Virus record (IMG/VR): IMGVR_UViG_3300045988_123588
Direction: 5' to 3' (one strand)
DNA: 64,000 nucleotides
From: a virus
How positions within the stretch are numbered: the stretch's first letter is position 1; each line of letters starts with the position of its first letter. Below, piece after piece: positions 15,357 to 58,189 of this stretch. A program made the translations under genes and the position numbers. The notes under the pieces are model-generated. The model did not search any database and was not told the origin of the DNA. It saw only the letters and a list, made by a program, of their open reading frames with translations.

Positions 15357-15788
15357 ATGAAAAAGATAAATCACATAAAGGTATTAGATGAGTTATTAAA
15401 CGGATTTGAATTCAAATATGGTAGTAGGGTTCAAAATAAAATGTTTGTGAACCAGTTATTCAGACATCTGGTTAATCAAGGGGTAGATGTTGATAAGTAC
15501 ATAGGGTTTGGTAAAGGTGCAAAAAGAGATTCTCAAAAGATACACTTAGTGTTTGAGTATGAAGGTTTTACTTATGCCGTAGACCTTAGCCGAAAATACC
15601 CAAGAAGGTATTCTTTAGAAAAACTATCAGGAGTTCCAGATTCGTTTGTAAAGGTTCTCTTCATAATCGATGGGGAATACAGATGGAGAGTAAAGTCAGA
15701 AGATAACTCAGTAAATCTTGTATACTCTTCCAAATTAACTAAAGAAAATACCAGCCGTAAGCCAAGTAGAAAGTCTATTAGATACTAA
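15357..15788 (+). CDS. hypothetical protein
   Basis: 143-aa ORF. Confidence 0.55.
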   Translation: MKKINHIKVLDELLNGFEFKYGSRVQNKMFVNQLFRHLVNQGVDVDKYIGFGKGAKRDSQKIHLVFEYEGFTYAVDLSRKYPRRYSLEKLSGVPDSFVKVLFIIDGEYRWRVKSEDNSVNLVYSSKLTKENTSRKPSRKSIRY

Positions 15789-16213: not shown

Positions 16214-16789
16214 ATGGTACAATTAGAGTTCACAAAGATTAGAGATGTTAAATCTCCAAACCGAGCTAATGAGGGAGATGCAGGTTTGGATTTTTACATA
16301 CCTAAATTAACTATTGATGACATCTTAAAGGTAGGTGAGAAACATGAGAAAGATTTCACCGGTATCAATAGAAAGATGTTTGGTTGTGGTAACATAAAAT
16401 TCAAAGGCATAGATACTAATGGGTTATGTATAGCCCTTAATCCAGGAGGACGAATACTTATACCCTCTGGAATAAAGGTTCTTATCAATCCCAGGGAATC
16501 CATGCTCATGGCAGCAAACAAATCGGGAGTTGCTACTAAAGATGGATTAACATTTACAGCCGAGATAGTTGACAGTCCGTACACGGGAGAGATGCACATC
16601 GGGATTCAAAACGCTTCTACTGAACCAGTATATATACCCCTCAGAGAAGATAAGAAGATAATGCAATTCATACATGTTCCTATCATACTCTCAACACCGG
16701 TAGAGATTACCAACGAGGAGTATGAAGAGAAAGCAAAAAACTGGGGAACAAGAGGAGATAAGGGATTTGGTGCACACGATAATAAGTAA
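16214..16789 (+). CDS. dut: trimeric dUTPase
   Basis: GDAGLDFY, GGRILIPSGIKV, SGVATKDGL, IVDSPYTGEMHIGIQN and RGDKGFG correspond to dUTPase motifs 1-5. Confidence 0.85.
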   Translation: MVQLEFTKIRDVKSPNRANEGDAGLDFYIPKLTIDDILKVGEKHEKDFTGINRKMFGCGNIKFKGIDTNGLCIALNPGGRILIPSGIKVLINPRESMLMAANKSGVATKDGLTFTAEIVDSPYTGEMHIGIQNASTEPVYIPLREDKKIMQFIHVPIILSTPVEITNEEYEEKAKNWGTRGDKGFGAHDNK

Positions 16790-16793
16790 GACA

Positions 16794-17699
16794 ATGGATA
16801 GTCGCGATATAAAGGAAGAACCGAAAAATATAGAGGGTAATAGATATCTTGAGGAGATATACTTTATGCAAAAGAACCTCCTATCTGGTTATATCGGTAT
16901 AGAGGGGCTCCCACAGTATCCTATAGATATCAATACAAAAGCTTCTCAAACTTTACTCAAGGACTTCACTGCACGTGTAATAGAGGAGTTATCTGAGGGG
17001 TACGAATCTTTTCAGGCAGTGGATAGTATCATGCAGAACAGTCACTACAAGATTATATCTGGTGATGACCTGATATACATTGAACTACTTAATAACCTTC
17101 AAAATGCCAATGAGGAAAATGCAGATGCAGTACACTTCTTTGTTGAGTTGCTGATATATGCTAACATTCAGCCTGATGATATCATGGCATACATGGAGAA
17201 GTGGGTAAAGGATAACAAATGCGAACAGAGTACAGTAGATTACTTTAACTCTATACGTAATGATATCCTGTATACTGCTCAATCTATGGGAGTGAAGTGG
17301 TTGATGGATGAGAGAGATATAGAAGTAATCTTTGATAGTAACTCAACAAACCTGTTGAAGTGGTACGAAGAGAAAGACTCCGAAACTTTCCCTGAGTACA
17401 ATGAGAAACTGTTGAAAGGCGGTTATAAGTATAATCACGAAAACTATGCTCTTCAATATCCGTATATACTATGGAAGATAACTCACCATTTGAACATAGC
17501 TCGTAATTTCCTGAAGAATAAACCATGGAAGCAATCTCAGGTGATGACTCAGGAGTTAAAGTATCAGGCTGAGTTGGTGAAAGCTTTCATATACTTCTGT
17601 GGTTACCTCGGATGGATAGGTATGGATTCTAAGGAAGTGTTCTATATATACTTCAAAAAGAACCATATCAATATGTTCCGTCAAAAATCTAAGTATTAG
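16794..17699 (+). CDS. all-alpha (dimeric dUTPase/dCTPase, MazG-like) NTP pyrophosphatase
   Basis: ARVIEELSEGYE, EENADAVHFFVELLIY, KNKPWKQ and C-terminal YFKKNHINMFRQKSKY resemble the dUTPase_2 family. Start moved to MDSRD after the dut stop. Confidence 0.55.
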   Translation: MDSRDIKEEPKNIEGNRYLEEIYFMQKNLLSGYIGIEGLPQYPIDINTKASQTLLKDFTARVIEELSEGYESFQAVDSIMQNSHYKIISGDDLIYIELLNNLQNANEENADAVHFFVELLIYANIQPDDIMAYMEKWVKDNKCEQSTVDYFNSIRNDILYTAQSMGVKWLMDERDIEVIFDSNSTNLLKWYEEKDSETFPEYNEKLLKGGYKYNHENYALQYPYILWKITHHLNIARNFLKNKPWKQSQVMTQELKYQAELVKAFIYFCGYLGWIGMDSKEVFYIYFKKNHINMFRQKSKY

Positions 17700-17700
17700 T

Positions 17701-18693
17701 ATGAACATAGTTAGGGCAAAGAATCCTATTAAGGCCTGGGAATATTTAGTAGAGGGATTCCTACTGAAAAAACCCGAATGGTTTGGAGAAGGAGTTGGTT
17801 ACAATATAACCAACTCTCTTTTCACGTACGATATGTGCATAGAGATAGAAGAAGCCAAGTTTAATCCCAAGTTTGACTTTGGTAAGTTGTTCTGTTATAC
17901 CATGACTAAGTGGACTGGTTTAATAACCAACTACTTCGATTTAGATGTGCTTGATGAAGCTAAGATTATGATAAGAAAGTTGGAAGAAAATAAGGTAGTG
18001 AATAGAAACTACCATATAGGCTTTCACTTTGCAGACAATCATAATAGTGGAAAGGGATGTCTGGTGGGTGGAATATTCTCTCGTAAAATAGGTGTAGAAA
18101 AACCAGAGATAACTATCATTCTACGTTCATCAGATGTAGTAACCAGATTGCCTATGGATATGCTGTTATTCTGTAGACTCGGTGAATATGTATACGGACA
18201 TACTGATTTCAAACTGGTACTGATTCTGAAAGCAGCTTTTGCAGATGATACAGCTATACTTATGTACAACAATCATAAGGAAATAAAGAAGGTAATGAAA
18301 GGCTGTGAAGATGTAGAACGTAAGAGAAAGATACGCAAATCATTCAAGAGGTTGATGACCAGTGATGAGAAGGTATATAAGACTTATGGTCACAGTTTCA
18401 GAGCTTTCAAAGCTTTGAGGAAAGATCTCTCTTATAAACGTAAGTCAATGACTGCAGGTGAATTAGAGATTGGTAACTGGGATGGTATTCCTCTTCCATA
18501 TCCATGTTCTTCAATACTCAAACGAAATGAGATAAAGAAGACCTACTTAAAGTTCACTAGTAAGTATGGGCTTAAATTAAAGCTGGAAAGTGAAGGTAAT
18601 GAAGGCAAAAGAAAGAAGCTACTATCATTCGGAGCATCAGAAGGAGAGCCAGAAGAAGTTGGATATCAAATACCAGGACAAGAAGATGAGTAA
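17701..18693 (+). CDS. thymidylate-synthase-fold (ThyA-like) protein, paralogue A
   Basis: SGKGCLVGGIF (compare PCHxxFQF) and ILRSSDVVTRLPMDMLLFCRL (compare [21 protein letters not shown]). Asp at the Asn177-equivalent position. Confidence 0.5.
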   Translation: MNIVRAKNPIKAWEYLVEGFLLKKPEWFGEGVGYNITNSLFTYDMCIEIEEAKFNPKFDFGKLFCYTMTKWTGLITNYFDLDVLDEAKIMIRKLEENKVVNRNYHIGFHFADNHNSGKGCLVGGIFSRKIGVEKPEITIILRSSDVVTRLPMDMLLFCRLGEYVYGHTDFKLVLILKAAFADDTAILMYNNHKEIKKVMKGCEDVERKRKIRKSFKRLMTSDEKVYKTYGHSFRAFKALRKDLSYKRKSMTAGELEIGNWDGIPLPYPCSSILKRNEIKKTYLKFTSKYGLKLKLESEGNEGKRKKLLSFGASEGEPEEVGYQIPGQEDE

Positions 18694-19474
18694 GCTTAAA
18701 ATAAAGGGTAACCTGTTGCAGTTCAAAACCAGCATGAAAGCTTGGGAAGGACTTAACAGGTTATTTCTGTTCAATACCCTTGGTTTGGACATAGAAAGAA
18801 TTGGTAAAGCTCAATATATAAATGATTTAGTCATTAGTATTAATGAGCCTCTAGTAGACCCAGAATTTGATTTTGGTAGGCACTTCAACTACACCATGTC
18901 AAAATGGAAGTCATTAGTAGCTAATTACATTGATGAGAATAGTTTGATTGACTTAAGACAGGAAGTCAACACAGCTATGAACTCAAGGAAGATATTCAAT
19001 ATAGGTTATCAGTTTAATAATAAACATGCTCATGGGAAGAACTGCCTATTATCTATGACAGTGTCTAAAAAGGCTGGTATGGATAAACCCATGATAACCG
19101 TGTTCATGAGGGCATCAGAAGTTACTAAAAGATTAATATGTGATTTACTCCTCATTCAACGTATGGGAGAGTATATATTTTGCAATGGTCAGAAGTTTCA
19201 AGTATCAATACATTTCAGTCAGATATTTAATGATGATACTGTATTACTAATGTACCATGCTCATGAAGATTTACTAAAGCTAAGTGATAAACTTGGTATA
19301 TACGACGGGAATTGGTATGAGCGATTAGAATACCTACTAAAAGTAGACCCTGACAAGATAAAGTATAAGGTACATAAAAGAGCTTTGAAAGTACTAAGGC
19401 CAGAATTATTCAAGTACCCAAAAACTCTGGCAAAAGATTGTACACTTGGTAATGAAGACTGGCTACCATTCTAA
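18686..19474 (+). CDS. thymidylate-synthase-fold (ThyA-like) protein, paralogue B
   Basis: Collinear with paralogue A (KAWEGL, DPEFDFG, TMSKW, HGKNCLL, FMRASEVTKRLICDLLLIQRMGEY). ATGAGTAA overlap with A. Start moved to MSKLKIKG. Confidence 0.5.
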   Translation: MSKLKIKGNLLQFKTSMKAWEGLNRLFLFNTLGLDIERIGKAQYINDLVISINEPLVDPEFDFGRHFNYTMSKWKSLVANYIDENSLIDLRQEVNTAMNSRKIFNIGYQFNNKHAHGKNCLLSMTVSKKAGMDKPMITVFMRASEVTKRLICDLLLIQRMGEYIFCNGQKFQVSIHFSQIFNDDTVLLMYHAHEDLLKLSDKLGIYDGNWYERLEYLLKVDPDKIKYKVHKRALKVLRPELFKYPKTLAKDCTLGNEDWLPF

Positions 19475-19510
19475 GATAGGGAAGTCTATTGAATTGCAAA
19501 TACCAATGCA

Positions 19511-19690
19511 ATGAAAATAGAAGTAAAGAAATCTCCTTATACCAGTAAACTCGGAGGAGATATAGATATAACTTTCTCCACTGATGATGGATGGTTATTT
19601 AATACCGTGGCCAACATAAGTGTAAAAGATTTAAGGCAGCTTAAAAGAAAGGTAAGGAGGTATCTAAGTGAAGTACGAGAGGAAAGGTAA
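19511..19690 (+). CDS. small protein (59 aa), paralogue of the next ORF
   Basis: Hand-translated; ISVKDLRQLKRKVRRYL parallels MNIQDLKELRKSIRKYI in 19668-19868. Confidence 0.35.
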   Translation: MKIEVKKSPYTSKLGGDIDITFSTDDGWLFNTVANISVKDLRQLKRKVRRYLSEVREER

Positions 19691-19868
19691 ACCATATTTT
19701 GGAGTGGAGATATCCAAGGGTAAATATCCCGATAGGAATAGCAGGGATATAGAGTTATCTATATGTATCAATGCTCATCATTGGGTAGGTCTTCCCAATA
19801 TGAATATTCAGGACCTAAAAGAACTACGAAAATCTATAAGAAAATATATTAAAAATAACGAACAATGA
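19668..19868 (+). CDS. small protein (66 aa)
   Basis: ORF with a GTG start overlapping the previous small ORF; ATGA overlap with the next gene. Confidence 0.4.
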   Translation: MKYERKGKPYFGVEISKGKYPDRNSRDIELSICINAHHWVGLPNMNIQDLKELRKSIRKYIKNNEQ

Positions 19869-20635
19869 GAATATATTCGAACCCTTACGAGTTAATGTCA
19901 GAAACTGCTCGTAATCTTTGGGAGATGGGTAATGAGGTAAAACCACGTACCTATCAGAATAAAGTTATCGAAGGCAAAGATGACTTTATTACAAAGGAAC
20001 TTATATGTGAGCAGTACTGTTTAACTCACATGGAAGACCCAGCTGCACTTTTCGTATTTACCAAGTCCAAGGACTGGGCAGATGCAGAACTAGAAGAGAG
20101 AGTAAGCGGTAGAATGGAAAATCCTGGCAAAGCTTGGGAACTTCGTAAGAATATTTGGGAAGAGTTTTTGGTCGATGGATTTTTTGACTATACCTATGCA
20201 GAACGTATGAACGAGACAGTTTCATACAAAGGTAAAGCATTCTCTAAACTCGAGGCAGTGATAGAACTGTTAAAAACAGATAACGATACAAGAAAAGCCA
20301 TATTAAATATATATGGTGAGGACGGTTTCAATGAAGATTGCGACTCAAACTACCTTGGGGGTGAACATAGAATACCATGTTCAATGTACTACGACTTCCT
20401 CATACGGGAAAATGCCCGAGGAGAGAAGCAGTTAAATATTTGTTATCACCAAAGGTCATCAGACTTTGTAACCCACTTCGGGAATGATGTATACCTGGCA
20501 TGGAGACTCATGGAATACGTAGCTAGAGAAGTGGGCATCAAACCTGGTTATCTCTATCATACTATTGATAGTTTGCATAGTTATAAAAAGGACTGGGTAA
20601 AGCTTAAAACTTCTATCCAGACCGAATTAAGGTAA
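19865..20635 (+). CDS. ThyA-family enzyme, dCMP hydroxymethylase/methylase-like
   Basis: LLKTDNDTRKAILNIY, RIPCSMYYDF and ICYHQRSSDFVTHFGNDVYLAWRLMEYVAREVGIKPGYLYHTIDSLHSY are collinear with E. coli ThyA. Asp replaces Asn177. Confidence 0.8.
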   Translation: MRIYSNPYELMSETARNLWEMGNEVKPRTYQNKVIEGKDDFITKELICEQYCLTHMEDPAALFVFTKSKDWADAELEERVSGRMENPGKAWELRKNIWEEFLVDGFFDYTYAERMNETVSYKGKAFSKLEAVIELLKTDNDTRKAILNIYGEDGFNEDCDSNYLGGEHRIPCSMYYDFLIRENARGEKQLNICYHQRSSDFVTHFGNDVYLAWRLMEYVAREVGIKPGYLYHTIDSLHSYKKDWVKLKTSIQTELR

Positions 20636-20713
20636 CAAAAGAGGGTAACGGTGGTTGAACTTAGTTTCTTTTCTGTCAAGCCGAGATTAGTAGTAAAACC
20701 GTTACCTTCTTTC

Positions 20714-20787
<74 letters not shown>

Positions 20788-20864
20788 CTTATGAATCTTT
20801 ACTTTGCGCTGTGGACAACGAGTCCTGATTCATTCCCAGGTACTGGACGGTAGTGATATAGACT

Positions 20865-20874
20865 GGTACCTAAT
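20865..20874 (+). repeat. GGTACCTAAT 10-mer, copy 4 of 4, 2 nt upstream of tRNA-Pro
   Basis: Identical 10-mer at 49911-49920, 50484-50493 and 51467-51476. Confidence 0.8.
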
Positions 20875-20876
20875 TT

Positions 20877-20951
20877 ACGGAAGTAGCACAGTCCGGTCAG
20901 TGTACTTGCTTTGGGAGCAAGGGGTCGCAGGTTCGAATCCTGTCTTCCGTA
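20877..20951 (+). tRNA. tRNA-Pro(TGG): tRNA-Pro (anticodon TGG)
   Basis: 75 nt: acceptor ACGGAAG/CTTCCGT, anticodon stem CTTGC/GCAAG, loop TTTGGGA, T-arm GCAGG-TTCGAAT-CCTGT. Confidence 0.85.
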
Positions 20952-21062
20952 CAAGGGCTATATGCTGGGTCATAACAGGAGATACGACCTCCAGCTAGCA
21001 ATGGGCAATAACCTGGTACGAGATACCAAAACCCATAATTAAAGTCGAAGGCTATAGCTTTA

Positions 21063-21100
21063 GGAGATGAGCGAAGAACAGTACCTCATCTCCCCTTTTG
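21063..21100 (+). terminator. hairpin plus T-run just upstream of tRNA-Leu (terminator or processing structure)
   Basis: GGAGATGAG...CTCATCTCC followed by CCTTTTG. Confidence 0.4.
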
Positions 21101-21105
21101 TAAAG

Positions 21106-21191
21106 GCTCGGATGGTGAAATAGGTAGACACGCCGGACTTAAAATCCTGTGACCAGCAATGGTCGTGCGGGTTCGATTCCCGCTCCGAGTA
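21106..21191 (+). tRNA. tRNA-Leu(TAA): tRNA-Leu (anticodon TAA), class II long variable arm
   Basis: 86 nt: acceptor GCTCGGA/TCCGAGT, loop CTTAAAA, variable arm GACCAGCAATGGTC, T-arm GCGGG-TTCGATT-CCCGC. Confidence 0.8.
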
Positions 21192-21206
21192 CAAAATACC
21201 CTGAAC

Positions 21207-21542
21207 ATGACAATCACATTCAAAGATTATCCTTGCGGTACAATTTCATTAGGTACTTCAGTAACAAGAATACCTAACTCATATCGGATTAAATCTATCC
21301 GAGATATGGAATATATAATCAACCGTTCTAGAGAAGAAGTAAATAAAAGTCCAGCATTCCATACGTTTGCAATAAATAAAAGAACTACAGCTGGTATGAT
21401 TATTGAATGGCGAGCCCATAATATGCTATATGCACTGCATATAAAAAGGAATCGGACTCGAACGGTTGACCTGGATATAAATGAACCATGGTACCGTAAA
21501 GTAGGATATGTAATATTATCAACACTATACTTAAGATGGTAG
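21207..21542 (+). CDS. hypothetical protein
   Basis: 111 aa; start moved to MTITFKD so that it no longer overlaps tRNA-Leu. Confidence 0.5.
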   Translation: MTITFKDYPCGTISLGTSVTRIPNSYRIKSIRDMEYIINRSREEVNKSPAFHTFAINKRTTAGMIIEWRAHNMLYALHIKRNRTRTVDLDINEPWYRKVGYVILSTLYLRW

Positions 21543-22144
21543 AAATCACAAACGTAGACGTTTATGACTTAGAGAAGTCAATTATAGCATGTAGGAATGC
21601 TATGCGTACAGAACCTGTATTTCCAATAGGCGTAGATGCTTGGGGACATCCAATTTACGAACAGAAGGAGTGGGATGATTCTTTCAAGAGGGCAAAATCA
21701 CTTGCCAAATCTCCCTCAAACAGTGGTCACCCTAATTTTCTAACCGGTATAAGGGTATCATTTGATATTCTGTACCCAAACTACTTTTCACCCGAGTTAC
21801 AACGATATCATTGGATAGACATTGTAACCTCATCTTCAAAGATGCACCGACTTGGTGAAATTGTAAAGAAGGAATCTTTTAACAAGTATGTAACTCCAGA
21901 GGTCATAGCTATAGTTCAGGACTTGGCCAATAAGTTCATTGAGGACCCCAGCTATGAGAATCGCATCAAGCTGTTAAGTAACTGCCCTCTCGGAATAGAG
22001 TTATTCATGAGGGTAAGTACAAACTATATGCAACTACGGAATATATACTACCAGAGGAAAGACCATCGCTTGAGAGAGGATTGGGGGTCATTTTGTAAGA
22101 TGATTCAGGAATTACCATTCTTTGATGAATTTATCAATCAGTAG
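21536..22144 (+). CDS. ThyX-fold (flavin-dependent thymidylate synthase-like) protein with a divergent active-site motif
   Basis: SGHPNFLTGIRVSFDILYPNYFSPELQRYHWIDIVTSSSKMH is collinear with the ThyX motif GHxxPxEHxxFTFxI...RHRxxSxxxxSxRY. VSTNYMQLRNIYYQRKDHRLREDW parallels the ThyX C-terminal motif. RHR is replaced by RYH. Confidence 0.55.
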   Translation: MVEITNVDVYDLEKSIIACRNAMRTEPVFPIGVDAWGHPIYEQKEWDDSFKRAKSLAKSPSNSGHPNFLTGIRVSFDILYPNYFSPELQRYHWIDIVTSSSKMHRLGEIVKKESFNKYVTPEVIAIVQDLANKFIEDPSYENRIKLLSNCPLGIELFMRVSTNYMQLRNIYYQRKDHRLREDWGSFCKMIQELPFFDEFINQ

Positions 22145-22146
22145 TT

Positions 22147-22392
22147 ATGGCCGATAGATATGAACATGTAAATCACCCAAAACACTACAATAATTATAGT
22201 GTGGAAGTGATAGATATGATGGAAGCAATTTATGGAACGGAAGCAACAATAACCTTCTGTGAAATGACAGCTTTCAAATATCGCATGAGGGTTGGTACTA
22301 AACCAGATAACTCAATAGAACAGGATTTACAAAAGGAACGTTGGTATCTTAACAAGGCTAAAGAATTAAGGGCTAAAATTAAGGTAGAATAA
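22147..22392 (+). CDS. DUF3310-like small phage protein (HPxHY motif)
   Basis: 81 aa; VNHPKHYN near the N-terminus. Confidence 0.45.
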   Translation: MADRYEHVNHPKHYNNYSVEVIDMMEAIYGTEATITFCEMTAFKYRMRVGTKPDNSIEQDLQKERWYLNKAKELRAKIKVE

Positions 22393-22521: not shown

Positions 22522-24810
22522 ATGGAGTCAAGATATGCTATAATAAAGAGTTTCTCACAAGTCAAGCGGCTTGTGAAAGCCTGTTTGAAAACAGGTATAG
22601 CTTCCGTCGACTTCGAGACAAACGCAGAGGGTATTTATAATAAAACCTTCAAACCAACCATCTTATCCATAACCTTTCAAGTTGGTTCTGGTGTATCAAT
22701 TCCACTATGTCATCATGAATATAAAAACCCTCGTTGGAAACGTTGGTTAAAGTATTTTGGTAGGAAAGTGGTTGAGAATCCTAATATAACTAAAGTAGGA
22801 TGGAATCTGAAGTTTGACCTTCAGATATTTGAGTTGTTTGGAATATATGTTAGGGGTACAGTTCTAGACGGTATGCTTATGAAGTACCTTCTGAACGAAG
22901 AGAAACCTAATGACTTGAAGTCCATGGTTAGAAGGTATCTACCAGAACATGGGGATTACGAGAAGTCAGATAAATTCGACAAGATACCATGGGATAAGAA
23001 ACCTTTAGAACCATTATGCAAGTATGGTTGTCAGGATACCGATTACACTCTTAGGTTAGCTATGTTCTTTGAAAGCAAGCTGATAGAGGTTGGTATGTAT
23101 CCATTATTCAGGCATTTGATTATGCCTGCTTCACGGGTATTGCAACATGCCGAGAAAACAGGATTATATCTCGATAGGAAGTTCAATCAGGAATTACTTG
23201 AATCTTATAAACCAAAGATTGACCAAGCAACTTCTAATTGCTTGAATCTTCCTCGAGTGAAAAAATTCTCTAGATGGCTTGTCCAAGAAAGAATAAGCAA
23301 ATATCTTGCATCTATTGAAAGTGAACTTGAGGATTTAGATTACAATGATCCGAAGGATGCCCGTAAAATAGCAAGCAGGGAACAAAAAATATCTAACATC
23401 CGAGCAGGTGTATTCACTACTAAAAAGGAATTGGAATTAACCCGAGAAGTAAACTTAGGGAGTCCTATTGACTTACCTTTGTTATTATATTCTAAAAAGG
23501 GATTTAACTTTCCGATAATAAAATACACAAAGGATAAGAAAACAAATCGTGATACTGATAAGCCAAGTACTGATGAGGATACGTTGGTAGAACTTAGGTT
23601 AACGGTTAAAGACCCAGAAAGTCCAAAGGCAATATTCCTGGATAACCTTCTTGAGTTGAGAGGGTTAAAGAAAATGTATACAACATATATAGAGGGGTGG
23701 CATGATAAGGTACAGGATGATGATAGGATTCATGGTCAATTCAAAATCATTGGTACTACATCAGGACGACTGAGTAGTTCTGAACCCAATCTACAGCAGA
23801 TACCAAAGACTTCAGTAGATGCTAATATTAAGAAACAGTTAGTAGCTCCAAAGGGGAAACTATACATGGCACTAGACTACTCTCAGGCAGAGTTAAGAAT
23901 CATGGCACACCTTTCAGGAGATGAGACTTATCTTGAGGCATTTGCCAAGGGTCAGGACCCTCACCTTGCTATTGCAGCAAACAAATATGGGGTATCATAC
24001 GAGGAAGCAAACAAAGCTTATAGCGATGAACAACATCCCGATTATAAGCTTTGGAAAAATCGAAGGAAGCAGGCAAAGCAGATATGTTTCGGTATTATAT
24101 ATGGTATTCAGAAGAAACTGCTTGCAGTTAAACTATCTGACCCAAAAGCTGGTATTATCGTAACTCCAGATGAAGCTCAACAACAGCTGAACGAGTTTTT
24201 CCAAGAGCACCCAAAGATTAAGAAGTTCATGATTAACCAAGAGAAAGTATTGGTAAGACATGGATATATTAAATCTCTGTTTGGTAGGAAAAGAAGATTA
24301 CCTCAAGTATATTCTGATAATGAGCAAGAAGCTGCATACGCAGTACGATTATCAGTTAATATGCCATGTCAATCAGCTGCATCCGATATGACTTTGTTTG
24401 CATCTATACTTAATTACTGGAAGATTAGGCAGGGCATATTACCACCTCTATTGGAAACATGTACTGTACATGATGCTGTTTATTACCTGACAGACCCAGA
24501 ATATATAAACATATTCACAGTGTATAATATATGGGAAACATGCCGTAACCCGAGTACAAAAGAATATTTCAAGTTTGAAATCAATGATGTCGATATGTCT
24601 ATGGACTTTACTATAGGACGTTCGATGGCTGAGGAGTTACCGTATATACCGGGATATGACTATAGAAAAATGCTTCAACCAGATTTCAATGTGGAGAAGT
24701 ATTTGGAAGAACATCGGAAATGGAAAGAGCTATCCATTAAAGAGTTCCCAAAGAAGTTTCCGGAATACTTTAAGAAGGATTACTCATGGCGAAAGGAAAA
24801 GGTGGCATAG
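22522..24810 (+). CDS. family A DNA polymerase with 3'-5' exonuclease domain
   Basis: Exo motifs VDFETN, NLKFDL, YGCQDTD; pol motifs A DYSQAELRIMAHLSGD, B RRKQAKQICFGIIYG, C VHDAVY. Confidence 0.9.
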   Translation: MESRYAIIKSFSQVKRLVKACLKTGIASVDFETNAEGIYNKTFKPTILSITFQVGSGVSIPLCHHEYKNPRWKRWLKYFGRKVVENPNITKVGWNLKFDLQIFELFGIYVRGTVLDGMLMKYLLNEEKPNDLKSMVRRYLPEHGDYEKSDKFDKIPWDKKPLEPLCKYGCQDTDYTLRLAMFFESKLIEVGMYPLFRHLIMPASRVLQHAEKTGLYLDRKFNQELLESYKPKIDQATSNCLNLPRVKKFSRWLVQERISKYLASIESELEDLDYNDPKDARKIASREQKISNIRAGVFTTKKELELTREVNLGSPIDLPLLLYSKKGFNFPIIKYTKDKKTNRDTDKPSTDEDTLVELRLTVKDPESPKAIFLDNLLELRGLKKMYTTYIEGWHDKVQDDDRIHGQFKIIGTTSGRLSSSEPNLQQIPKTSVDANIKKQLVAPKGKLYMALDYSQAELRIMAHLSGDETYLEAFAKGQDPHLAIAANKYGVSYEEANKAYSDEQHPDYKLWKNRRKQAKQICFGIIYGIQKKLLAVKLSDPKAGIIVTPDEAQQQLNEFFQEHPKIKKFMINQEKVLVRHGYIKSLFGRKRRLPQVYSDNEQEAAYAVRLSVNMPCQSAASDMTLFASILNYWKIRQGILPPLLETCTVHDAVYYLTDPEYINIFTVYNIWETCRNPSTKEYFKFEINDVDMSMDFTIGRSMAEELPYIPGYDYRKMLQPDFNVEKYLEEHRKWKELSIKEFPKKFPEYFKKDYSWRKEKVA

Positions 24811-25237: not shown

Positions 25238-25612
25238 ATGTCAAAAATTGAATTAGACCTTATTTCGGTCAAAGAAGCAAATGAGTTGAACGATAAACTG
25301 AAAGGTTTAGGAACTCCAACAGGAAGCCGGGTACTTATAGTATCTCCAATAGTAACTGCAGATACAAAAACAAAGGGTGGATTATATATCCCTCAGGAAC
25401 ACGACAAAGATACAGTACCACGCAAAGGAGTGGTCATTCAAGTAGGACCAATAACTGACGAACAGCAGGAAGAATATCCTGGTCTTCAAGTAGGAGCTGT
25501 AGTTACGTATGGTCTGTATGCCGGTAAAGAGCTGGATATTGTAGACCTTCCCAATCAAGTAACTACTATATTATCTCTGAACGAGATACTTTACATTGAA
25601 ACCAATAAATAA
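25238..25612 (+). CDS. GroES/Cpn10-like co-chaperonin
   Basis: SRVLIVSPIVTADTKTKGGLYIP...RKGVVIQVG...LQVGAVVTYGLYAGKE...LNEILYIE is collinear with E. coli GroES. Confidence 0.7.
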   Translation: MSKIELDLISVKEANELNDKLKGLGTPTGSRVLIVSPIVTADTKTKGGLYIPQEHDKDTVPRKGVVIQVGPITDEQQEEYPGLQVGAVVTYGLYAGKELDIVDLPNQVTTILSLNEILYIETNK

Positions 25613-27675: not shown

Positions 27676-28585
27676 AAAACCGAGGATGCTTATGGTAGTG
27701 GACGGGAGTAATCTTGCTCACCGTTCATACCATAAGTTTAAGAATCTAAAAGCCAACAACGGAGTTGGTACAGGGTTGGTATATGGATTCTTAAGAATCT
27801 TAGGTTCATACCTAACAAGGTTTAAGCCCAGTCATGTAGTAATTACTTTCGATACTCAACAGAGCAAAGAGTCAAATTTCCGTAATGGTCTACTCGAAGG
27901 TTACAAAGCACATAGGAGTAAGATAAGTATGGATTATGAAGACTTCAATAAACAATTATCATTGTTGAGAAGGATTCTAAGATTACTCGGAGTTCAGATG
28001 ATTATTGATAGGAAGGGCCTGGGATATGAATCTGATGACTACATTGCTTGGTTGGCAATAAACCACCCAGGTAAATCTCTGATAATATCCTCTGATAAAG
28101 ACTTCTGTCAATTGCTTGATAAAAGAGTCAAGATATTCAATCCTAACAAAGATACCATAATCCTAAACCAAACCTGCAAGGATATCATGGGTTACTCTGC
28201 TGAGGAATGCGTTGACTACCTAATACTTAATGGAGATAAGTCAGATGATATCCCAGGTTATTACGGTATGGGAGAAGTGAAGACAAAAGCTTTCTTAAAA
28301 CAGTATGGGAGTATATCAGACTTCATAGATGCAGTCGGAGCAGAGTTCAAGGGTATTGAAAGGGACCAGCTAGAAGAGTTATACAAGAAGAACAAGCCTC
28401 TGATAGACTTGAGAACAGCATTAACTCTGCACCCAATCAAGAAAGTCCCTTGGGTAAAAGGATGTACTAATAATAAAAGGAAGGATAGGTTATTCATGGT
28501 ATTAGACAAGTTTAACCTTAGGTCTTTCAAGATACCCGATTTTTTGGAACCTTTCAAAAAACTACAACATTATGTACAACGGTAG
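27665..28585 (+). CDS. 5'-3' exonuclease / flap endonuclease (RNase H-like)
   Basis: MVVDGSNLAHRSYH, FDTQQS..FRN..YKAHR, ESDDYIA, SSDKDFCQL. The start could also be 27686. Confidence 0.85.
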   Translation: MRGRKPRMLMVVDGSNLAHRSYHKFKNLKANNGVGTGLVYGFLRILGSYLTRFKPSHVVITFDTQQSKESNFRNGLLEGYKAHRSKISMDYEDFNKQLSLLRRILRLLGVQMIIDRKGLGYESDDYIAWLAINHPGKSLIISSDKDFCQLLDKRVKIFNPNKDTIILNQTCKDIMGYSAEECVDYLILNGDKSDDIPGYYGMGEVKTKAFLKQYGSISDFIDAVGAEFKGIERDQLEELYKKNKPLIDLRTALTLHPIKKVPWVKGCTNNKRKDRLFMVLDKFNLRSFKIPDFLEPFKKLQHYVQR

Positions 28586-29234
28586 GAAATACCAAATCAT
28601 GTTCACCGGAGTTTCGGGAGTTGGAAAAACAACTATTGCCAAGGAAGTGGCAGATATGTTAAAGATACCTTTCATATCTGGGTCATATTCTGACTTGGTA
28701 CCTGAAACTAAAAACATGCCACATGCTGATATGATTCAGCAGGATGCCGAAACGGTATTCACACAGGATATGCAGGTACTTAATCTGCGTAACAAAGCTT
28801 TCAGGGGAGAAGATAGCTTTGTAACAGACAGGTCATACTTTGACTCAGCAGCATACTTTATCAATAAGCTATCACATAGGTTAGCTGAATGCGATTTAGA
28901 ACATGCTGTAGACTTATGTCGTATGTTACTTGGTCAACAATGTACTCATTTAATCTTCATACCTTTCTCAGCAAGATTTTTCAATGAGTGGGTAACAGAA
29001 GATAACGGTAAACGAGTACTATCAAAGTACTACCAATTCCAGGTATCACAGGTAATGTACGGACTACTTGACCTGTGGGGTTTCAAACTAGATTCAAATA
29101 TATTCCAGTATGTAAATGGTATTCCCAATACTGGTACATTGGATATCATGGGTTACAAGATTAAAGTCATGATATTGGATGAGATGAACTACGAAAAAAG
29201 GAAAAACCTTATCAACAAATTTCTTCAGTTATGA
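28572..29234 (+). CDS. P-loop nucleotide kinase-like protein (dNMP kinase or DNA-base kinase candidate)
   Basis: IMFTGVSGVGKTTIAKEVA Walker A; TDRSYFDSAAYF resembles the dNK/NadR-type kinase motif. Confidence 0.5.
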   Translation: MYNGRKYQIMFTGVSGVGKTTIAKEVADMLKIPFISGSYSDLVPETKNMPHADMIQQDAETVFTQDMQVLNLRNKAFRGEDSFVTDRSYFDSAAYFINKLSHRLAECDLEHAVDLCRMLLGQQCTHLIFIPFSARFFNEWVTEDNGKRVLSKYYQFQVSQVMYGLLDLWGFKLDSNIFQYVNGIPNTGTLDIMGYKIKVMILDEMNYEKRKNLINKFLQL

Positions 29235-57169: not shown

Positions 57170-58189
57170 ATGCAAAAGCCAATAGTAATTTTAGGAGTCG
57201 ATGCAGCACAAGGTGCACTACTTTTCCCCTTTCAAAATGATTCTCGGTTCAGAATAGTAGCAAATATAGAACCCCGCTCAGTTTTTCATAGTAAAGGGGA
57301 ATTACAATGGAAGCTCAATTTTGGAAATATACCGTTTGTAAGAAGCCTTGAAGAGGTCAAAAACACCCAAATTGACCTGATATTAGGTTCTCCTTCATGT
57401 GGTCATAGTTCTGTATTCTCTTATTCCAGGAAAAAATCCTTGGGCAAACCCCGGGAAGATGCCACCCTTAATTTATATCTTTCCAGTATAAAGAAGTTCA
57501 AGCCAGCAATATTTATGCTGGAGAACCTCCCAAAGCTTCTAGATTTTATACCTATCGGGGAATGGGAGCATAATTTACCCGATTATCAACTTATAGTTCA
57601 CTGTCACTCCGTTTCGGTATTCGGTAATTCTCAACAAAGTAGGAAACGTCTGGTATTGATAGGAGTACGTAAAGATTATAAAGTTAACCCAGACCTCTTC
57701 ACCCATACTTTCAAAGTAAGTAAGTTGAAAAACCTATGTGAACTGAAGAAAGAAGTACGCAGGGATATAAATTATCGAGAAGCAGATGATAAAAAGTTGG
57801 CAATGTATCATTATGCAGATAAGTCGAAAACTACTTTAACCGTGGCCCAAGTGAGGAAATTATGGAGAACCGAGTTTAAGAATGACTACAAATGGCCAAT
57901 GAGAACTCAAAAGATGAAGACTCTTCCAGGAGTATATAGGAATAGGAAAAGAAGTTACCCATTGACCGTGAGACCCTCATCAAGACAATTCAACCCCCAT
58001 GGAAGGATAATTGGCCTTGAAGAGTATAGGGTTATAATGGGCTTTCCTAAAAATTTTAAGGTATATTTTGATAAGGCTAATCCCACCTATTGGTTAAATA
58101 AGGGAAGGAATACCTTAACCAAAGGTTCGGTATATGAGGTTGGGATATGGTTAAAAAGGTGCCTAATTAAGGCCTCAATTTTAAGATAA
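57170..58189 (+). CDS. DNA (cytosine-5) methyltransferase-like protein with an atypical motif I
   Basis: Motif IV GSPSCGHSS, VI FMLENLPKL, VIII QQSRKRLVLIG and IX/X IGLEEYRVIMGFPKNFKV are collinear with M.HhaI. Motif I reads LGVDAAQGA instead of FxGxGG. Start moved to MQKPIVIL. Confidence 0.65.
   Translation: MQKPIVILGVDAAQGALLFPFQNDSRFRIVANIEPRSVFHSKGELQWKLNFGNIPFVRSLEEVKNTQIDLILGSPSCGHSSVFSYSRKKSLGKPREDATLNLYLSSIKKFKPAIFMLENLPKLLDFIPIGEWEHNLPDYQLIVHCHSVSVFGNSQQSRKRLVLIGVRKDYKVNPDLFTHTFKVSKLKNLCELKKEVRRDINYREADDKKLAMYHYADKSKTTLTVAQVRKLWRTEFKNDYKWPMRTQKMKTLPGVYRNRKRSYPLTVRPSSRQFNPHGRIIGLEEYRVIMGFPKNFKVYFDKANPTYWLNKGRNTLTKGSVYEVGIWLKRCLIKASILR

What the first reader, a model, noticed from the sequence alone, without database searches (positions are those of the whole stretch)
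16214..22392. Candidate deoxycytidine (hyper)modification pathway: three ThyA-fold and one ThyX-fold enzyme plus two dUTPase-type NTPases within 6 kb
Back to back, the phage encodes:
- a classic trimeric dUTPase;
- an all-alpha dUTPase/dCTPase-family NTP pyrophosphatase;
- two tandem ThyA-fold paralogues;
- a third, clearly ThyA/dCMP-hydroxymethylase-like protein;
- a tRNA trio;
- a ThyX-fold protein;
- a DUF3310-like protein.

Hand alignment to E. coli ThyA ([18 protein letters not shown]) puts Asp, not Asn, at the Asn177-equivalent position in all three ThyA-fold proteins: RSSDVVTRLPMD, RASEVTKRLICD and RSSDFVTHFGND. In T4 gp42 dCMP hydroxymethylase the equivalent Asp is the residue that switches specificity from uracil to cytosine.

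A P-loop kinase (28572-29234) and a C5-MTase-like gene (57170-58189) lie elsewhere in the window. Together these resemble a T4-style route, dCTP -> dCMP -> 5-X-dCMP -> dNTP, but with three or four C5-pyrimidine enzymes instead of one. I do not know of a described pathway with this arrangement.
Basis: partly seen in the sequence, partly recalled or inferred. Interest (0 to 1): 0.85.

Follow-up and report, generated by a model that had tools for sequence, protein, structure and literature searches.

The report
Gut-phage cytosine-modification module, new ThyA-fold family
A common human-gut phage carries a conserved five-gene block that most likely swaps the C in its DNA for a C5-modified form, as phage T4 does, and it includes two copies of an undescribed enzyme family related to thymidylate synthase whose product is unknown.

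Summary

- **ThyA fold of the tandem pair:** Pfam sees nothing, but an AlphaFold model (pLDDT 86) matches only the ThyA superfamily in Foldseek, and hhalign gives 87% probability.
- **ThyX fold of the 202-aa protein:** confirmed (pLDDT 93, TM about 0.65).
- **Asp at the Asn177 position:** in all three ThyA-fold proteins.

The interpretation needs three corrections.

1. The conserved unit is five genes: trimeric dUTPase, a T4 gp56-like all-alpha NTPase, tandem A, tandem B and an Asp177 ThyA homologue. All five occur in 78 of 80 related gut-phage loci, next to PolA. The ThyX-like gene is accessory (11 of 75 loci); DUF3310 and orf112 are about as rare.
2. A and B belong to a distinct, unannotated ThyA-fold family with near-invariant Tyr, Cys, Arg, Glu and Asp. 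It sits beside an Asp177 ThyA gene in distant phages too, including cultured Clostridium perfringens phages (CPD4 gp74) and probably mycobacteriophage Muddy (gp47).
3. I found no glycosyltransferase, dioxygenase or similar enzyme, so hypermodification is unsupported.

Best reading: a T4/Xp12-style pre-replicative route from dCTP through dCMP to 5-methyl- or 5-hydroxymethyl-dCMP. A second cytosine-directed enzyme of unknown chemistry accompanies it.

The parts
16214..16789 (+). Trimeric dUTPase (191 aa)
   Evidence: PF00692 E 1.5e-8; phrog_135; NCBIfam dut 4e-15 against dCTP deaminase 0.004. Present in 79 of 80 related loci.
16794..17699 (+). All-alpha NTP pyrophosphatase, T4 gp56 (dCTPase/dUTPase)-like (301 aa; the ORF opens at 16722)
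   Evidence: PF08761 30.6 bits against a 22.9 cutoff; phrog_12184 and phrog_173. The C-terminal motif EVFYIYFKKNHINMFRQKSKY matches T4 gp56 EIFKLYYLKNKHNFERQDNGY, BLASTP E 3e-5. Present in 80 of 80 loci.
17701..18693 (+). Tandem A: diverged member of the new ThyA-fold family, with a C-terminal extension (330 aa)
   Evidence: AF2 pLDDT 85.9. Foldseek PDB top 50 are all ThyA superfamily, best hit 9iqu (AfhB dCMP hydroxylase) at E 6e-6. hhalign probability 87%. Y66, C120, R142, D145 and D153 are conserved.
18686..19474 (+). Tandem B: typical member of the new ThyA-fold family (262 aa); its start overlaps the stop of A by 8 nt
   Evidence: 33% identical to A, E 7e-43; phrog_34294, function unknown. 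It carries the family motif C...RASEVTKRLxxD. Present in 80 of 80 loci.
19511..19868 (+). Two small paralogous ORFs (59 and 66 aa) of unknown function, variably present
   Evidence: Paralogous at E 8e-8. Found in 43 and 40 of 80 loci. No family hits.
19865..20635 (+). ThyA-3: ThyA/dCMP-hydroxymethylase-family enzyme with Asp at the Asn177 position (256 aa)
   Evidence: PF00303 E 4e-17. Y94, R126, C146, R166, S167, D169, H207 and Y209 are kept; position 177 is D, 143 is R and 147 is S, each in 25 of 25 clade members. Present in 79 of 80 loci.
20714..21192 (+). tRNA-Met(CAT), tRNA-Pro(TGG), tRNA-Leu(TAA)
   Evidence: ARAGORN.
21204..21542 (+). orf112, first gene of the accessory cassette, function unknown
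   Evidence: No family hit. Present in only 12 of 80 loci, alongside the ThyX-like gene.
21536..22144 (+). ThyX-fold protein (202 aa), accessory; canonical ThyX motif only partly kept
   Evidence: No Pfam hit; phrog_6721, function unknown. AF2 pLDDT 92.6; Foldseek top hits are all ThyX, TM 0.56-0.66. No sequence-level match to TM0449. RHR...S.R reads RYH...S.K in the best ungapped register. Present in 11 of 75 loci.
22147..22392 (+). DUF3310 protein (81 aa), accessory
   Evidence: PF11753 E 2.5e-13; PHROGs label it 'nucleotide kinase'. Present in 14 of 80 loci.
22522..24810 (+). Family A DNA polymerase, immediately downstream of the module
   Evidence: A 762-aa ORF homologous to genes called PF00476/PF01612 in related loci. 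Adjacent to the module in 75 of 80 loci.
28572..29234 (+). P-loop NMP-kinase-like protein (220 aa), candidate kinase for the modified dNMP
   Evidence: Weak hits to AAA_28, AAA_18 and Cytidylate_kin2; phrog_2107 'thymidylate kinase' 2.8e-8. A homologue lies just after PolA in L092. Substrate not established.
57170..58189 (+). C5-cytosine DNA methyltransferase-like protein (not part of the conserved module)
   Evidence: PF00145 E 4e-16 covering profile positions 42-300. Motif IV reads SPSCG and motif VI reads ENL.

Best explanation
The region is a conserved early-gene nucleotide module that most likely replaces dC with a C5-modified dC before replication. It has one component of unknown chemistry.

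**Inferred steps**
1. The gp56-like all-alpha NTPase hydrolyses dCTP (and dCDP) to dCMP. This keeps plain dC out of phage DNA and feeds the next enzyme.
2. ThyA-3 attacks C6 of dCMP with its conserved Cys and transfers the one-carbon unit of methylene-tetrahydrofolate to C5. Asp at the Asn177 position selects cytosine. The product is 5-methyl-dCMP or 5-hydroxymethyl-dCMP; the sequence does not say which.
3. The P-loop kinase and host NDP kinase raise the product to the triphosphate, and the adjacent family A polymerase incorporates it.
4. The trimeric dUTPase keeps uracil out and yields dUMP.

**The new family**
Tandem A and B belong to a separate ThyA-fold family. It keeps a Cys nucleophile, the Tyr general base, the Arg166 equivalent, a Glu/Asp at the folate-contacting Asp169 position and an invariant Asp at the Asn177 position. 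It nearly always lies next to an Asp177 ThyA gene. I read it as a second cytosine-directed C5 enzyme, here possibly an A/B heterodimer. It would make a different C5 product or act on a different phosphorylation state.

**The accessory block**
The orf112, ThyX-like and DUF3310 genes are not part of the conserved route.

**Shown:** folds, residues, gene order, conservation. **Inferred:** substrates, products, any complex, and that virion DNA is modified.
For: - **Gene identities:**
- **ThyA-3 residues:** full ThyA catalytic set with D177 in 25 of 25 clade members. Asn177-to-Asp confers dCMP preference and marks modified contigs (PMC13326640; PMC8670742).
- **NTPase:** shares the gp56 dCTPase C-terminal motif.
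- **Conservation:** all five genes in 78 of 80 related loci, in the same order in 77, next to PolA.
- **Same module in distant phages:**
  - L089: NTPase, family member, ThyA, PolA.
  - L092: NTPase, family member, ThyA, dCMP deaminase, PolA, kinase.
  - CPD4: kinase, NTPase, gp74, gp75 ThyA.
  - Muddy: gp49 to gp44.

- **Published signature:** Asp177 ThyA, deaminase, MazG-type NTPase and PolA co-localise in cytosine-modified contigs.
- **Fold and active site of the new family:**; residue conservation across 112 members.
- **Both A and B keep the catalytic residues,** and their ORFs overlap by 8 nt.
Against: - No chemical data exist for this phage or any relative I could find.
- Methyl versus hydroxymethyl cannot be called. 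Position 143 is Arg, which is neither the hydrophobic residue of ThyA nor the Asp/Glu of hydroxymethylases, and Xp12's dCMP methylase has Asn there.
- A C5 DNA methyltransferase-like gene elsewhere in the window would be redundant if every C were already modified at C5.
- The new family lacks clear equivalents of three of the four phosphate-binding arginines of ThyA; the R126/R127-equivalent position (R102 in tandem A) varies. Its substrate may therefore not be a dNMP.
- The family's link to ThyA is at fold and profile level only: no Pfam hit and Foldseek TM 0.37-0.53.
- The kinase assignment is weak.
Confidence: 0.55

Rival explanations
1. The module is a thymidylate-supply bypass, not a DNA modification. 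dCTP goes to dCMP, then to 5-methyl-dCMP (or its triphosphate), which is deaminated to a thymidine nucleotide. This draws dT from the dC pool, and virion DNA stays canonical or nearly so.
For: - Related modules in L092 and Muddy carry a zinc dCMP-deaminase gene directly after the Asp177 ThyA gene.
- A 5mC-selective deaminase route to dTTP is documented for Xp12-type phages.
- Most loci lack any recognisable dUMP-type thymidylate synthase.
Against: - No deaminase was found among the scanned ORFs of at least 120 aa in this window, nor in the L089 or CPD4 modules.
- In the documented cases the deaminase works alongside full 5mC replacement, not instead of it.
- It leaves the second ThyA-fold family unexplained.
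Confidence: 0.15
2. The new family (A, B) is not a free-nucleotide C5-transferase. Either it is a regulatory or scaffolding partner of ThyA-3, or it acts on another substrate such as CMP, a di- or triphosphate, or cytosine in RNA or DNA.
For: - Only one of the four ThyA phosphate-binding arginines is clearly kept.
- The second-best structural neighbour is MilA, a CMP hydroxymethylase.
- It is strictly adjacent to a bona fide ThyA homologue, as a partner subunit would be.
- A has a conserved C-terminal extension of about 130 residues with no known counterpart.
Against: - Cys, Tyr, Arg, Glu and Asp at catalytic-equivalent positions are near-invariant across 112 members at roughly 30% identity. 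That argues for catalysis, not scaffolding.
- No ThyA-fold enzyme is known to act on polymers (my own knowledge).
Confidence: 0.2
3. These are ordinary, redundant thymidylate synthases and dUTPases for dTTP supply, and the Asp assignments are alignment artefacts.
For: - Many phages carry ThyA, ThyX and dUTPase for nucleotide supply.
- Database annotations of the relatives say 'thymidylate synthase'.
Against: - The ThyA-3 core aligns unambiguously with five reference enzymes, and Asp177 is invariant, whereas the dUMP enzymes SPO1 gp29 and E. coli ThyA have Asn in the same column.
- The family motif L-x-F-D lines up with ThyA L-P-F-N in two independent hhalign runs.
- The only candidate dUMP enzyme, the ThyX-like protein, is accessory and has lost much of the ThyX motif.
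Confidence: 0.07

Closest known systems
T4 dCTPase (gp56), dCMP hydroxymethylase (gp42) and dNMP kinase (gp1): pre-replicative 5-hydroxymethyl-dC pathway
   Same: - A gp56-type all-alpha NTPase sharing the C-terminal motif.
- A ThyA-family enzyme with Asp at the Asn177/Asp179 position and the catalytic Cys.
- A P-loop kinase and the phage's own polymerase nearby.
   Different: - ThyA-3 has Arg, not Asp, at the position (E. coli 143) linked to hydroxymethyl products.
- No glucosyltransferase was found.
- The polymerase is family A, not B.
- An extra ThyA-fold family is present that T4 lacks.
Xanthomonas phage Xp12-type dCMP methylase with a 5mC-selective deaminase (10.1101/2024.12.05.627091)
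   Same: - An Asp177 ThyA homologue with Asp169 kept.
- Relatives of this module (L092, Muddy) have the deaminase directly after the ThyA gene and next to PolA. That matches the reported co-localisation of thymidylate synthase, deaminase, NTPase and PolA.
   Different: - No deaminase or DHFR was found in this window.
- Xp12 has no member of the new family in the region read.
- Position 143 is Asn in Xp12 and Arg here.
RB69 gp48 / HY126 AfhB flavin-dependent 5-hydroxy-dCMP synthases (PMC13326640; PDB 9iqu, 9iqc)
   Same: - ThyA fold, catalytic Cys, Asp at position 177.
- 9iqu is the best PDB match, by sequence for ThyA-3 (E 2.4e-5) and by structure for tandem A (E 6e-6).
   Different: The diagnostic Asp169-to-Asn change is absent. 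ThyA-3 has Asp, tandem A has Asp, and 105 of 112 family members have Glu.
Flavin-dependent thymidylate synthase ThyX (Pfam Thy1; T. maritima TM0449, H. pylori 3ah5)
   Same: The 202-aa protein has the ThyX fold at TM 0.56-0.66. In the best ungapped register it keeps equivalents of H53, R78, S88, N163 and R174.
   Different: - No Pfam or PDB sequence match, even with a profile.
- RHR reads RYH, R90 is Lys, and R165 and R147 are lost.
- It is accessory here and occurs in unrelated phage contexts.
MilA CMP 5-hydroxymethylase (mildiomycin pathway; PDB 5jnh, 5b6d)
   Same: A ThyA-fold, cytosine-specific C5 enzyme. It is the second-best structural neighbour of tandem A (E 2e-5).
   Different: About 8% identity and rmsd above 16 A over the aligned columns. 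MilA matches PF00303-type sequences, whereas the new family does not.

Membership tests
Thymidylate synthase / dCMP hydroxymethylase family (PF00303): ThyA-3, 19865-20635 | Profile match above the curated cutoff | tested here: met
   62.7 bits against a 24.3 cutoff, E 4e-17.
Thymidylate synthase / dCMP hydroxymethylase family (PF00303): ThyA-3, 19865-20635 | Catalytic Cys146, Tyr94, Arg166-Ser167, Asp169, His207/Tyr209 (E. coli numbering) | tested here: met
   All are present and invariant in 25 of 25 clade members. R127 is Lys and R21 is not conserved.
dCMP-specific subgroup (T4 gp42, Xp12, RB69 gp48) | Asp instead of Asn at position 177 | tested here: met
   Asp in ThyA-3 and 25 of 25 relatives. 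Asn in E. coli ThyA and in SPO1 dUMP hydroxymethylase, same column.
T4-type dCMP hydroxymethylase | Asp/Glu at position 143 (admits water, giving a hydroxymethyl product) | tested here: not met
   Arg in 25 of 25. T4 has Asp, RB69 Glu, SPO1 Asp and Xp12 Asn. The rule is itself imperfect.
5-hydroxy-dCMP synthase (RB69 gp48 / AfhB) | Asp169-to-Asn signature (PMC13326640) | tested here: not met
   Asp in ThyA-3 and tandem A, Glu in tandem B and 105 of 112 family members.
Any dCMP C5-modifying enzyme | Conversion of dCMP to a C5-substituted product | not testable with these tools
   Needs an enzyme assay or LC-MS of DNA.
ThyA superfamily: tandem A and B and their family | Sequence-profile match to PF00303 | tested here: not met
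   No Pfam hit for A, B or 20 other members. One weak NCBIfam hit to archaeal ThyA, E 0.003.
ThyA superfamily: tandem A and B and their family | ThyA fold | tested here: met
   AF2 pLDDT 85.9. All top-50 PDB hits are ThyA, dCMP hydroxylase or MilA, E 6e-6 to 5e-4, probability 1.00, though TM is only 0.37-0.53. BFVD gives annotated thymidylate synthases after the family's own members.
ThyA superfamily: tandem A and B and their family | Catalytic Cys, and the Arg166 / Asp169 / residue-177 triad in register | tested here: met
   hhalign probability 87%, E 4e-6. It pairs C120 with C146, R142 with R166, D145 with D169, D153 with N177 and Y189 with Y209. Conservation: 111, 111, 108 and 110 of 112 for the first four.
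ThyA superfamily: tandem A and B and their family | Four-arginine phosphate site (R21, R126', R127', R166) | tested here: inconclusive
   Only the R166 equivalent is invariant. The R126/127-equivalent position varies (K, S, T, N, R). The N-terminal alignment is unreliable.
ThyX (Pfam Thy1): 202-aa protein | Profile match and the RHRxxSxxxxSxR ThyX motif | tested here: not met
   No Pfam or NCBIfam hit. A profile search of PDB sequences finds nothing. hhalign against TM0449 fails. The motif reads RYHWIDIVTSSSK.
ThyX (Pfam Thy1): 202-aa protein | ThyX fold | tested here: met
   pLDDT 92.6. Top 50 PDB hits are all ThyX, TM 0.54-0.66.
Trimeric dUTPase (PF00692) | Profile match above cutoff | tested here: met
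   35 bits against a 22 cutoff. The dut model scores far better than the dCTP deaminase model.
Dimeric all-alpha dUTPase/dCTPase (PF08761; T4 gp56) | Profile match above cutoff and similarity to gp56 | tested here: met
   30.6 bits against a 22.9 cutoff, C-terminal part only. BLASTP to T4 gp56 E 3e-5, with a shared terminal motif. Substrate preference not testable here.
Post-replicative pyrimidine hypermodification systems (5-HMUDK/aGPT-Pplase, glycosyltransferases, TET/JBP, carbamoyltransferase) | Presence of at least one such transferase or dioxygenase | tested here: not met
   No such Pfam or PHROG family among the ORFs of at least 120 aa scanned; the structural-gene ORFs beyond 58.2 kb were not scanned. 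About 20 kb of ORFs have no hits at all, so absence is not proven.

The most novel reading that the evidence does not exclude
The Tyr/Cys/Arg/Glu/Asp ThyA-fold family (tandem A and B here; CPD4 gp74; probably Muddy gp47) catalyses a cytosine C5 reaction different from methylation, hydroxymethylation and hydroxylation, or works on a substrate no ThyA-fold enzyme is known to use. If so, these abundant Bacteroides-type gut phages, C. perfringens phages and a therapeutic mycobacteriophage would carry an undescribed DNA base.
Probability: 0.2. Interest if true: 0.85.

Novelty: new variant of a known kind. Interest (0 to 1): 0.62.

Why it matters
- **How common it is.** Phage DNA base modifications defeat restriction and CRISPR, and they have supplied reagents for epigenetic sequencing. 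This module sits in a phage group that is very common in human gut metagenomes. Its architecture fits the 'Flandersviridae' described in PMC8008677, where these genes were not discussed.
- **An untested enzyme family.** The module contains a whole family of ThyA-fold proteins with an intact-looking active site. No database names it and nobody appears to have assayed it.
- **It can be tested now.** The same family is present in cultured C. perfringens phages and probably in phage Muddy, which is used therapeutically. That removes the need to isolate a gut phage.
- **Practical consequences if DNA is modified.** It would affect how well these phages are sequenced and quantified in viromes. It would also affect how they interact with host defence systems.

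Tried and rejected
- **Sequence-profile search of the tandem family against PDB sequences:** no ThyA hit, only noise. The relationship shows only by fold and by profile-profile comparison.
- **Profile of the ThyX-like family against PDB sequences, and hhalign against T. maritima ThyX:** nothing. Residue mapping therefore rests on the best ungapped registers and is tentative.
- **Looking for informative domain fusions in longer family members (365-483 aa):** none.
- **Scanning IMG/VR with a diverse family alignment, and with P0241:** the first failed for lack of a conserved stretch and the second found no relatives.
- **Literature on the GenBank relatives (MT121964 and others), on Muddy and on the C. 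perfringens and Serratia phages:** no data on DNA modification. A search on Flandersviridae and DNA modification was also unproductive.
- **Kinase and NTPase against PDB sequences:** uninformative.
- **Promoter and terminator scan of 15-23 kb:** no more sites than in shuffled sequence.
- **5-hydroxy-dCMP synthase assignment, suggested by the top PDB hits:** rejected, because the Asp169-to-Asn signature is absent.
- **ThyX-like and DUF3310 as integral pathway members:** rejected on distribution.

Full report
**Observation check**

The stretch 16214-22392 is a run of + strand genes with almost no intergenic space.

- Pfam confirms a trimeric dUTPase (PF00692), an all-alpha dUTPase_2-type NTPase (PF08761), a thymidylate-synthase-family protein at 19865-20635 (PF00303, E 4e-17) and a DUF3310 protein.
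- ARAGORN finds tRNA-Met, tRNA-Pro and tRNA-Leu at 20714-21192.
- The two tandem genes (17701-18693, 'A'; 18686-19474, 'B') and the 202-aa gene (21536-22144) have no Pfam match. PHROGs files B and the 202-aa protein under unknown-function families.
- A and B are clear paralogues: 33% identity, E 7e-43.

**Folds of the unannotated proteins**

I built an alignment of 41 homologues of A and predicted its structure, which gave pLDDT 85.9. Foldseek against the PDB returned only ThyA-superfamily enzymes in the top 50. The best was 9iqu, the phage HY126 dCMP hydroxylase AfhB (E 6e-6), followed by the CMP hydroxymethylase MilA and then classical thymidylate synthases. TM scores were modest, at 0.37-0.53. 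Against predicted viral structures the order was: the family's own uncharacterised members first, then annotated thymidylate synthases and gp42.

The 202-aa protein modelled at pLDDT 92.6 and matched only ThyX structures, with TM up to 0.66.

**Active-site residues of ThyA-3**

I fetched reference enzymes from annotated phage genomes:

- T4 gp42
- RB69 gp48
- SPO1 gp29
- Xp12 thymidylate synthase homologue
- CPD4 gp75
- Muddy gp46

In the MAFFT alignment ThyA-3 keeps W80, Y94, R126, C146, Q165, R166, S167, D169, H207 and Y209. It has Asp at 177, Ser at 147 and Arg at 143, each invariant in 25 of 25 members of its clade. In the same column the dUMP enzymes E. coli ThyA and SPO1 gp29 have Asn177.

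The literature says the following:

- Asp at 177 selects dCMP.
- Position 143 correlates with methyl versus other products.
- Asp169-to-Asn marks the flavin-dependent 5-hydroxy-dCMP synthases (PMC13326640).
- Positions 177 and 147 are the two most modification-associated positions in metavirome thymidylate synthases (PMC8670742).

ThyA-3 is therefore a predicted folate-type dCMP C5-transferase. It is not a 5-hydroxy-dCMP synthase. Arg143 fits neither rule, and Xp12's methylase has Asn there, so methyl versus hydroxymethyl stays open.

**The tandem pair is a separate family**

A profile search of 1.84 billion cluster representatives found 174 relatives at E up to 1e-3, of which 99 at E up to 1e-10. 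Most are 250-300 aa, and none of the 20 tested has a Pfam domain.

Counts across 112 members of at least 200 aa:

| Residue (tandem A numbering) | Members that keep it (of 112) |
|---|---|
| Tyr66 | 107 |
| Lys70 | 109 |
| Trp71 | 107 |
| Cys120 | 111 |
| Arg142 | 111 |
| Glu/Asp145 | 108 (Glu in 105) |
| Asp153 | 110 |

hhalign of the family against the ThyA alignment gives probability 87% and E 4e-6. It pairs C120 with C146, R142 with R166, D145 with D169, D153 with N177 and Y189 with Y209 (an earlier run is).

The phosphate-binding Arg126/127 equivalents are not conserved. B has the typical family motif, RASEVTKRL..D. A is a diverged copy with a conserved C-terminal extension of about 130 residues. 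Orthologues of both copies keep all the catalytic-equivalent residues. The A stop and the B start overlap by 8 nt.

**What is conserved and what is accessory**

I fetched 80 IMG/VR loci that encode relatives of A. In them:

- All five of dUTPase, all-alpha NTPase, A, B and ThyA-3 are present in 78, and in the same order in 77. Identity falls to about 45%. The block is flanked by an SF2 helicase and PolA.
- The ThyX-like gene is present in only 11 of the 75 loci that span ThyA-3 to PolA. orf112 is in 12 and DUF3310 in 14 of the 80.
- The ThyX-like family is large, with 2401 homologues. It occurs in unrelated phage contexts without any ThyA cluster.

The ThyX-like protein has no detectable sequence similarity to T. 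maritima ThyX. The best ungapped registers suggest that H53, R78, S88, N163 and R174 equivalents are kept. The RHR motif reads RYH, and R90, R147 and R165 are lost (reference sequence verified). I treat it as a widespread accessory ThyX-fold protein of uncertain activity.

**The same module in distant and cultured phages**

Contigs that carry distant family members show the same neighbourhood:

| Source | Gene order |
|---|---|
| L089 | NTPase, family member, ThyA-3-like (52%), PolA |
| L091 | family member, ThyA-3-like |
| L092 (84.6 kb) | DnaB, primase, SF2 helicase, orf133-like, NTPase, family member, Asp177 ThyA, dCMP deaminase, PolA, P-loop kinase |
| L102 | NTPase, family member, UDG-PolA fusion, with a ThyA gene 4 kb upstream |
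| Clostridium phage CPD4 | gp72 P-loop kinase, gp73 gp56-like NTPase, gp74 family member, gp75 Asp177 ThyA; PolA at gp79 |
| Mycobacterium phage Muddy | gp49 thymidylate kinase, gp48 all-alpha NTPase, gp47, gp46 Asp177 ThyA, gp45 deaminase-like, gp44 PolA |

A family HMM hits the 'hypothetical' gp74 of Clostridium phage CPD4 at E 1.7e-31 (98.9 bits). It lies directly upstream of the Asp177 ThyA gp75. Ten cultured C. perfringens phages carry this gene. Muddy gp47 matches the family HMM only weakly (E 5e-6, N-terminal part) but has Cys, Arg and Asp in matching places on inspection.

So the duplication into A and B is specific to the window's clade. The single-copy state next to an Asp177 ThyA gene is the general rule.

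**Other components**

- The window NTPase shares the terminal motif of the T4 gp56 dCTPase/dUTPase (BLASTP E 3e-5).
- The P-loop protein at 28572-29234 resembles NMP kinases only weakly.
- The C5-MTase-like gene has PF00145 at E 4e-16. Its motif IV is atypical (SPSCG), and there is no match to the motif I part of the profile.
- Pfam and PHROG scans of the ORFs of at least 120 aa up to 58.2 kb found baseplate, lysis and replication genes, plus about 20 kb of ORFs with no hits. They found no glycosyltransferase, dioxygenase, carbamoyltransferase, deaminase or DHFR.
- The genome layout fits the candidate family 'Flandersviridae' of Bacteroides/Parabacteroides phages: contractile-tail genes; DnaB, primase and PolA; then about 20 kb of unknown ORFs; related contigs of 75-85 kb (PMC8008677). 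The nearest GenBank records are unannotated human-faecal phages.

**Mechanism**

The best-supported reading is a T4/Xp12-type pre-replicative route:

1. The gp56-like NTPase makes dCMP.
2. ThyA-3 converts it to 5-methyl- or 5-hydroxymethyl-dCMP.
3. Kinases raise it to the triphosphate.
4. PolA incorporates it.

The trimeric dUTPase excludes uracil. The published co-localisation of Asp177 thymidylate synthase, MazG-type NTPase, deaminase and PolA in cytosine-modified contigs matches this module. The new family is most simply a second cytosine-directed C5 enzyme, here perhaps an A/B heterodimer. Its product, cofactor and substrate phosphorylation state are unknown. Every step beyond gene identity, fold, residues and synteny is inference.

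**Rivals**

- A dC-to-dT bypass without DNA modification.
- A non-catalytic role or a different substrate for the new family.
- Ordinary redundant thymidylate synthesis.

Their evidence is set out in the Rival explanations section.

**Novelty**

The route is of a known kind. What is new is the uncharacterised ThyA-fold family that accompanies Asp177 ThyA genes in very common gut phages and in cultured phages. That makes the question directly testable. I found no paper that describes it.

Noticed in passing
window 15357-15788: A 143-aa ORF between the SF2 helicase and orf133 is absent from all 80 related loci. Its only hit is a weak one to an unknown-function PHROG. It looks like a strain-specific insertion.
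   Followed up: partly
window 19511-19868: Two small overlapping ORFs (59 and 66 aa) between tandem B and ThyA-3 are paralogues (E 8e-8). They are present in only about half of related loci. Function unknown.
   Followed up: partly
L004 3539-5762 (Clostridium phage CPD4 gp72-gp75); L006 2045-5256 (Mycobacterium phage Muddy gp49-gp45): Cultured phages carry the same module of kinase, gp56-like NTPase, new-family protein and Asp177 ThyA. Muddy also has a deaminase-like gp45. Database annotations call the family member 'hypothetical', and in phage CPAS-15 'colanic acid biosynthesis glycosyltransferase', which looks like a misannotation.
   Followed up: partly
L102 5384-9163: In a distant relative the new-family gene sits between a dUTPase_2-type NTPase and a PolA fused to a uracil-DNA glycosylase domain.
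   Followed up: no
window 57170-58189: The C5-methyltransferase-like protein has SPSCG in place of the usual PCQ catalytic motif. Its Pfam match starts at profile position 42, so the SAM-binding motif I is not recognised. It may be divergent or have a different activity.
   Followed up: no
window 35475-57156: About 20 kb of ORFs, part of them on the minus strand, give no Pfam hit at all. This matches the 'approximately 20 kb of ORFs without detectable similarity' described for Flandersviridae.
   Followed up: partly
window 25238-25612: The phage encodes a Cpn10/GroES-like co-chaperonin (PF00166, E 9e-13), between PolA and a gp32-like ssDNA-binding protein.
   Followed up: no
BFVD entry A0A2I6PI74 (Pseudomonas phage PMBT14): An uncharacterised 262-aa protein of a cultured Pseudomonas phage is the third-best structural neighbour of tandem A (E 8e-9, TM 0.54/0.66, 11% identity). 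It ranks ahead of annotated thymidylate synthases and may be a further divergent branch of the fold.
   Followed up: no
L092 11905-12333: A dCMP-deaminase gene (PF00383/MafB19) lies between the Asp177 ThyA gene and PolA in a related 84.6-kb contig, but not in the window's clade. Thymidylate supply may therefore differ between clades.
   Followed up: partly
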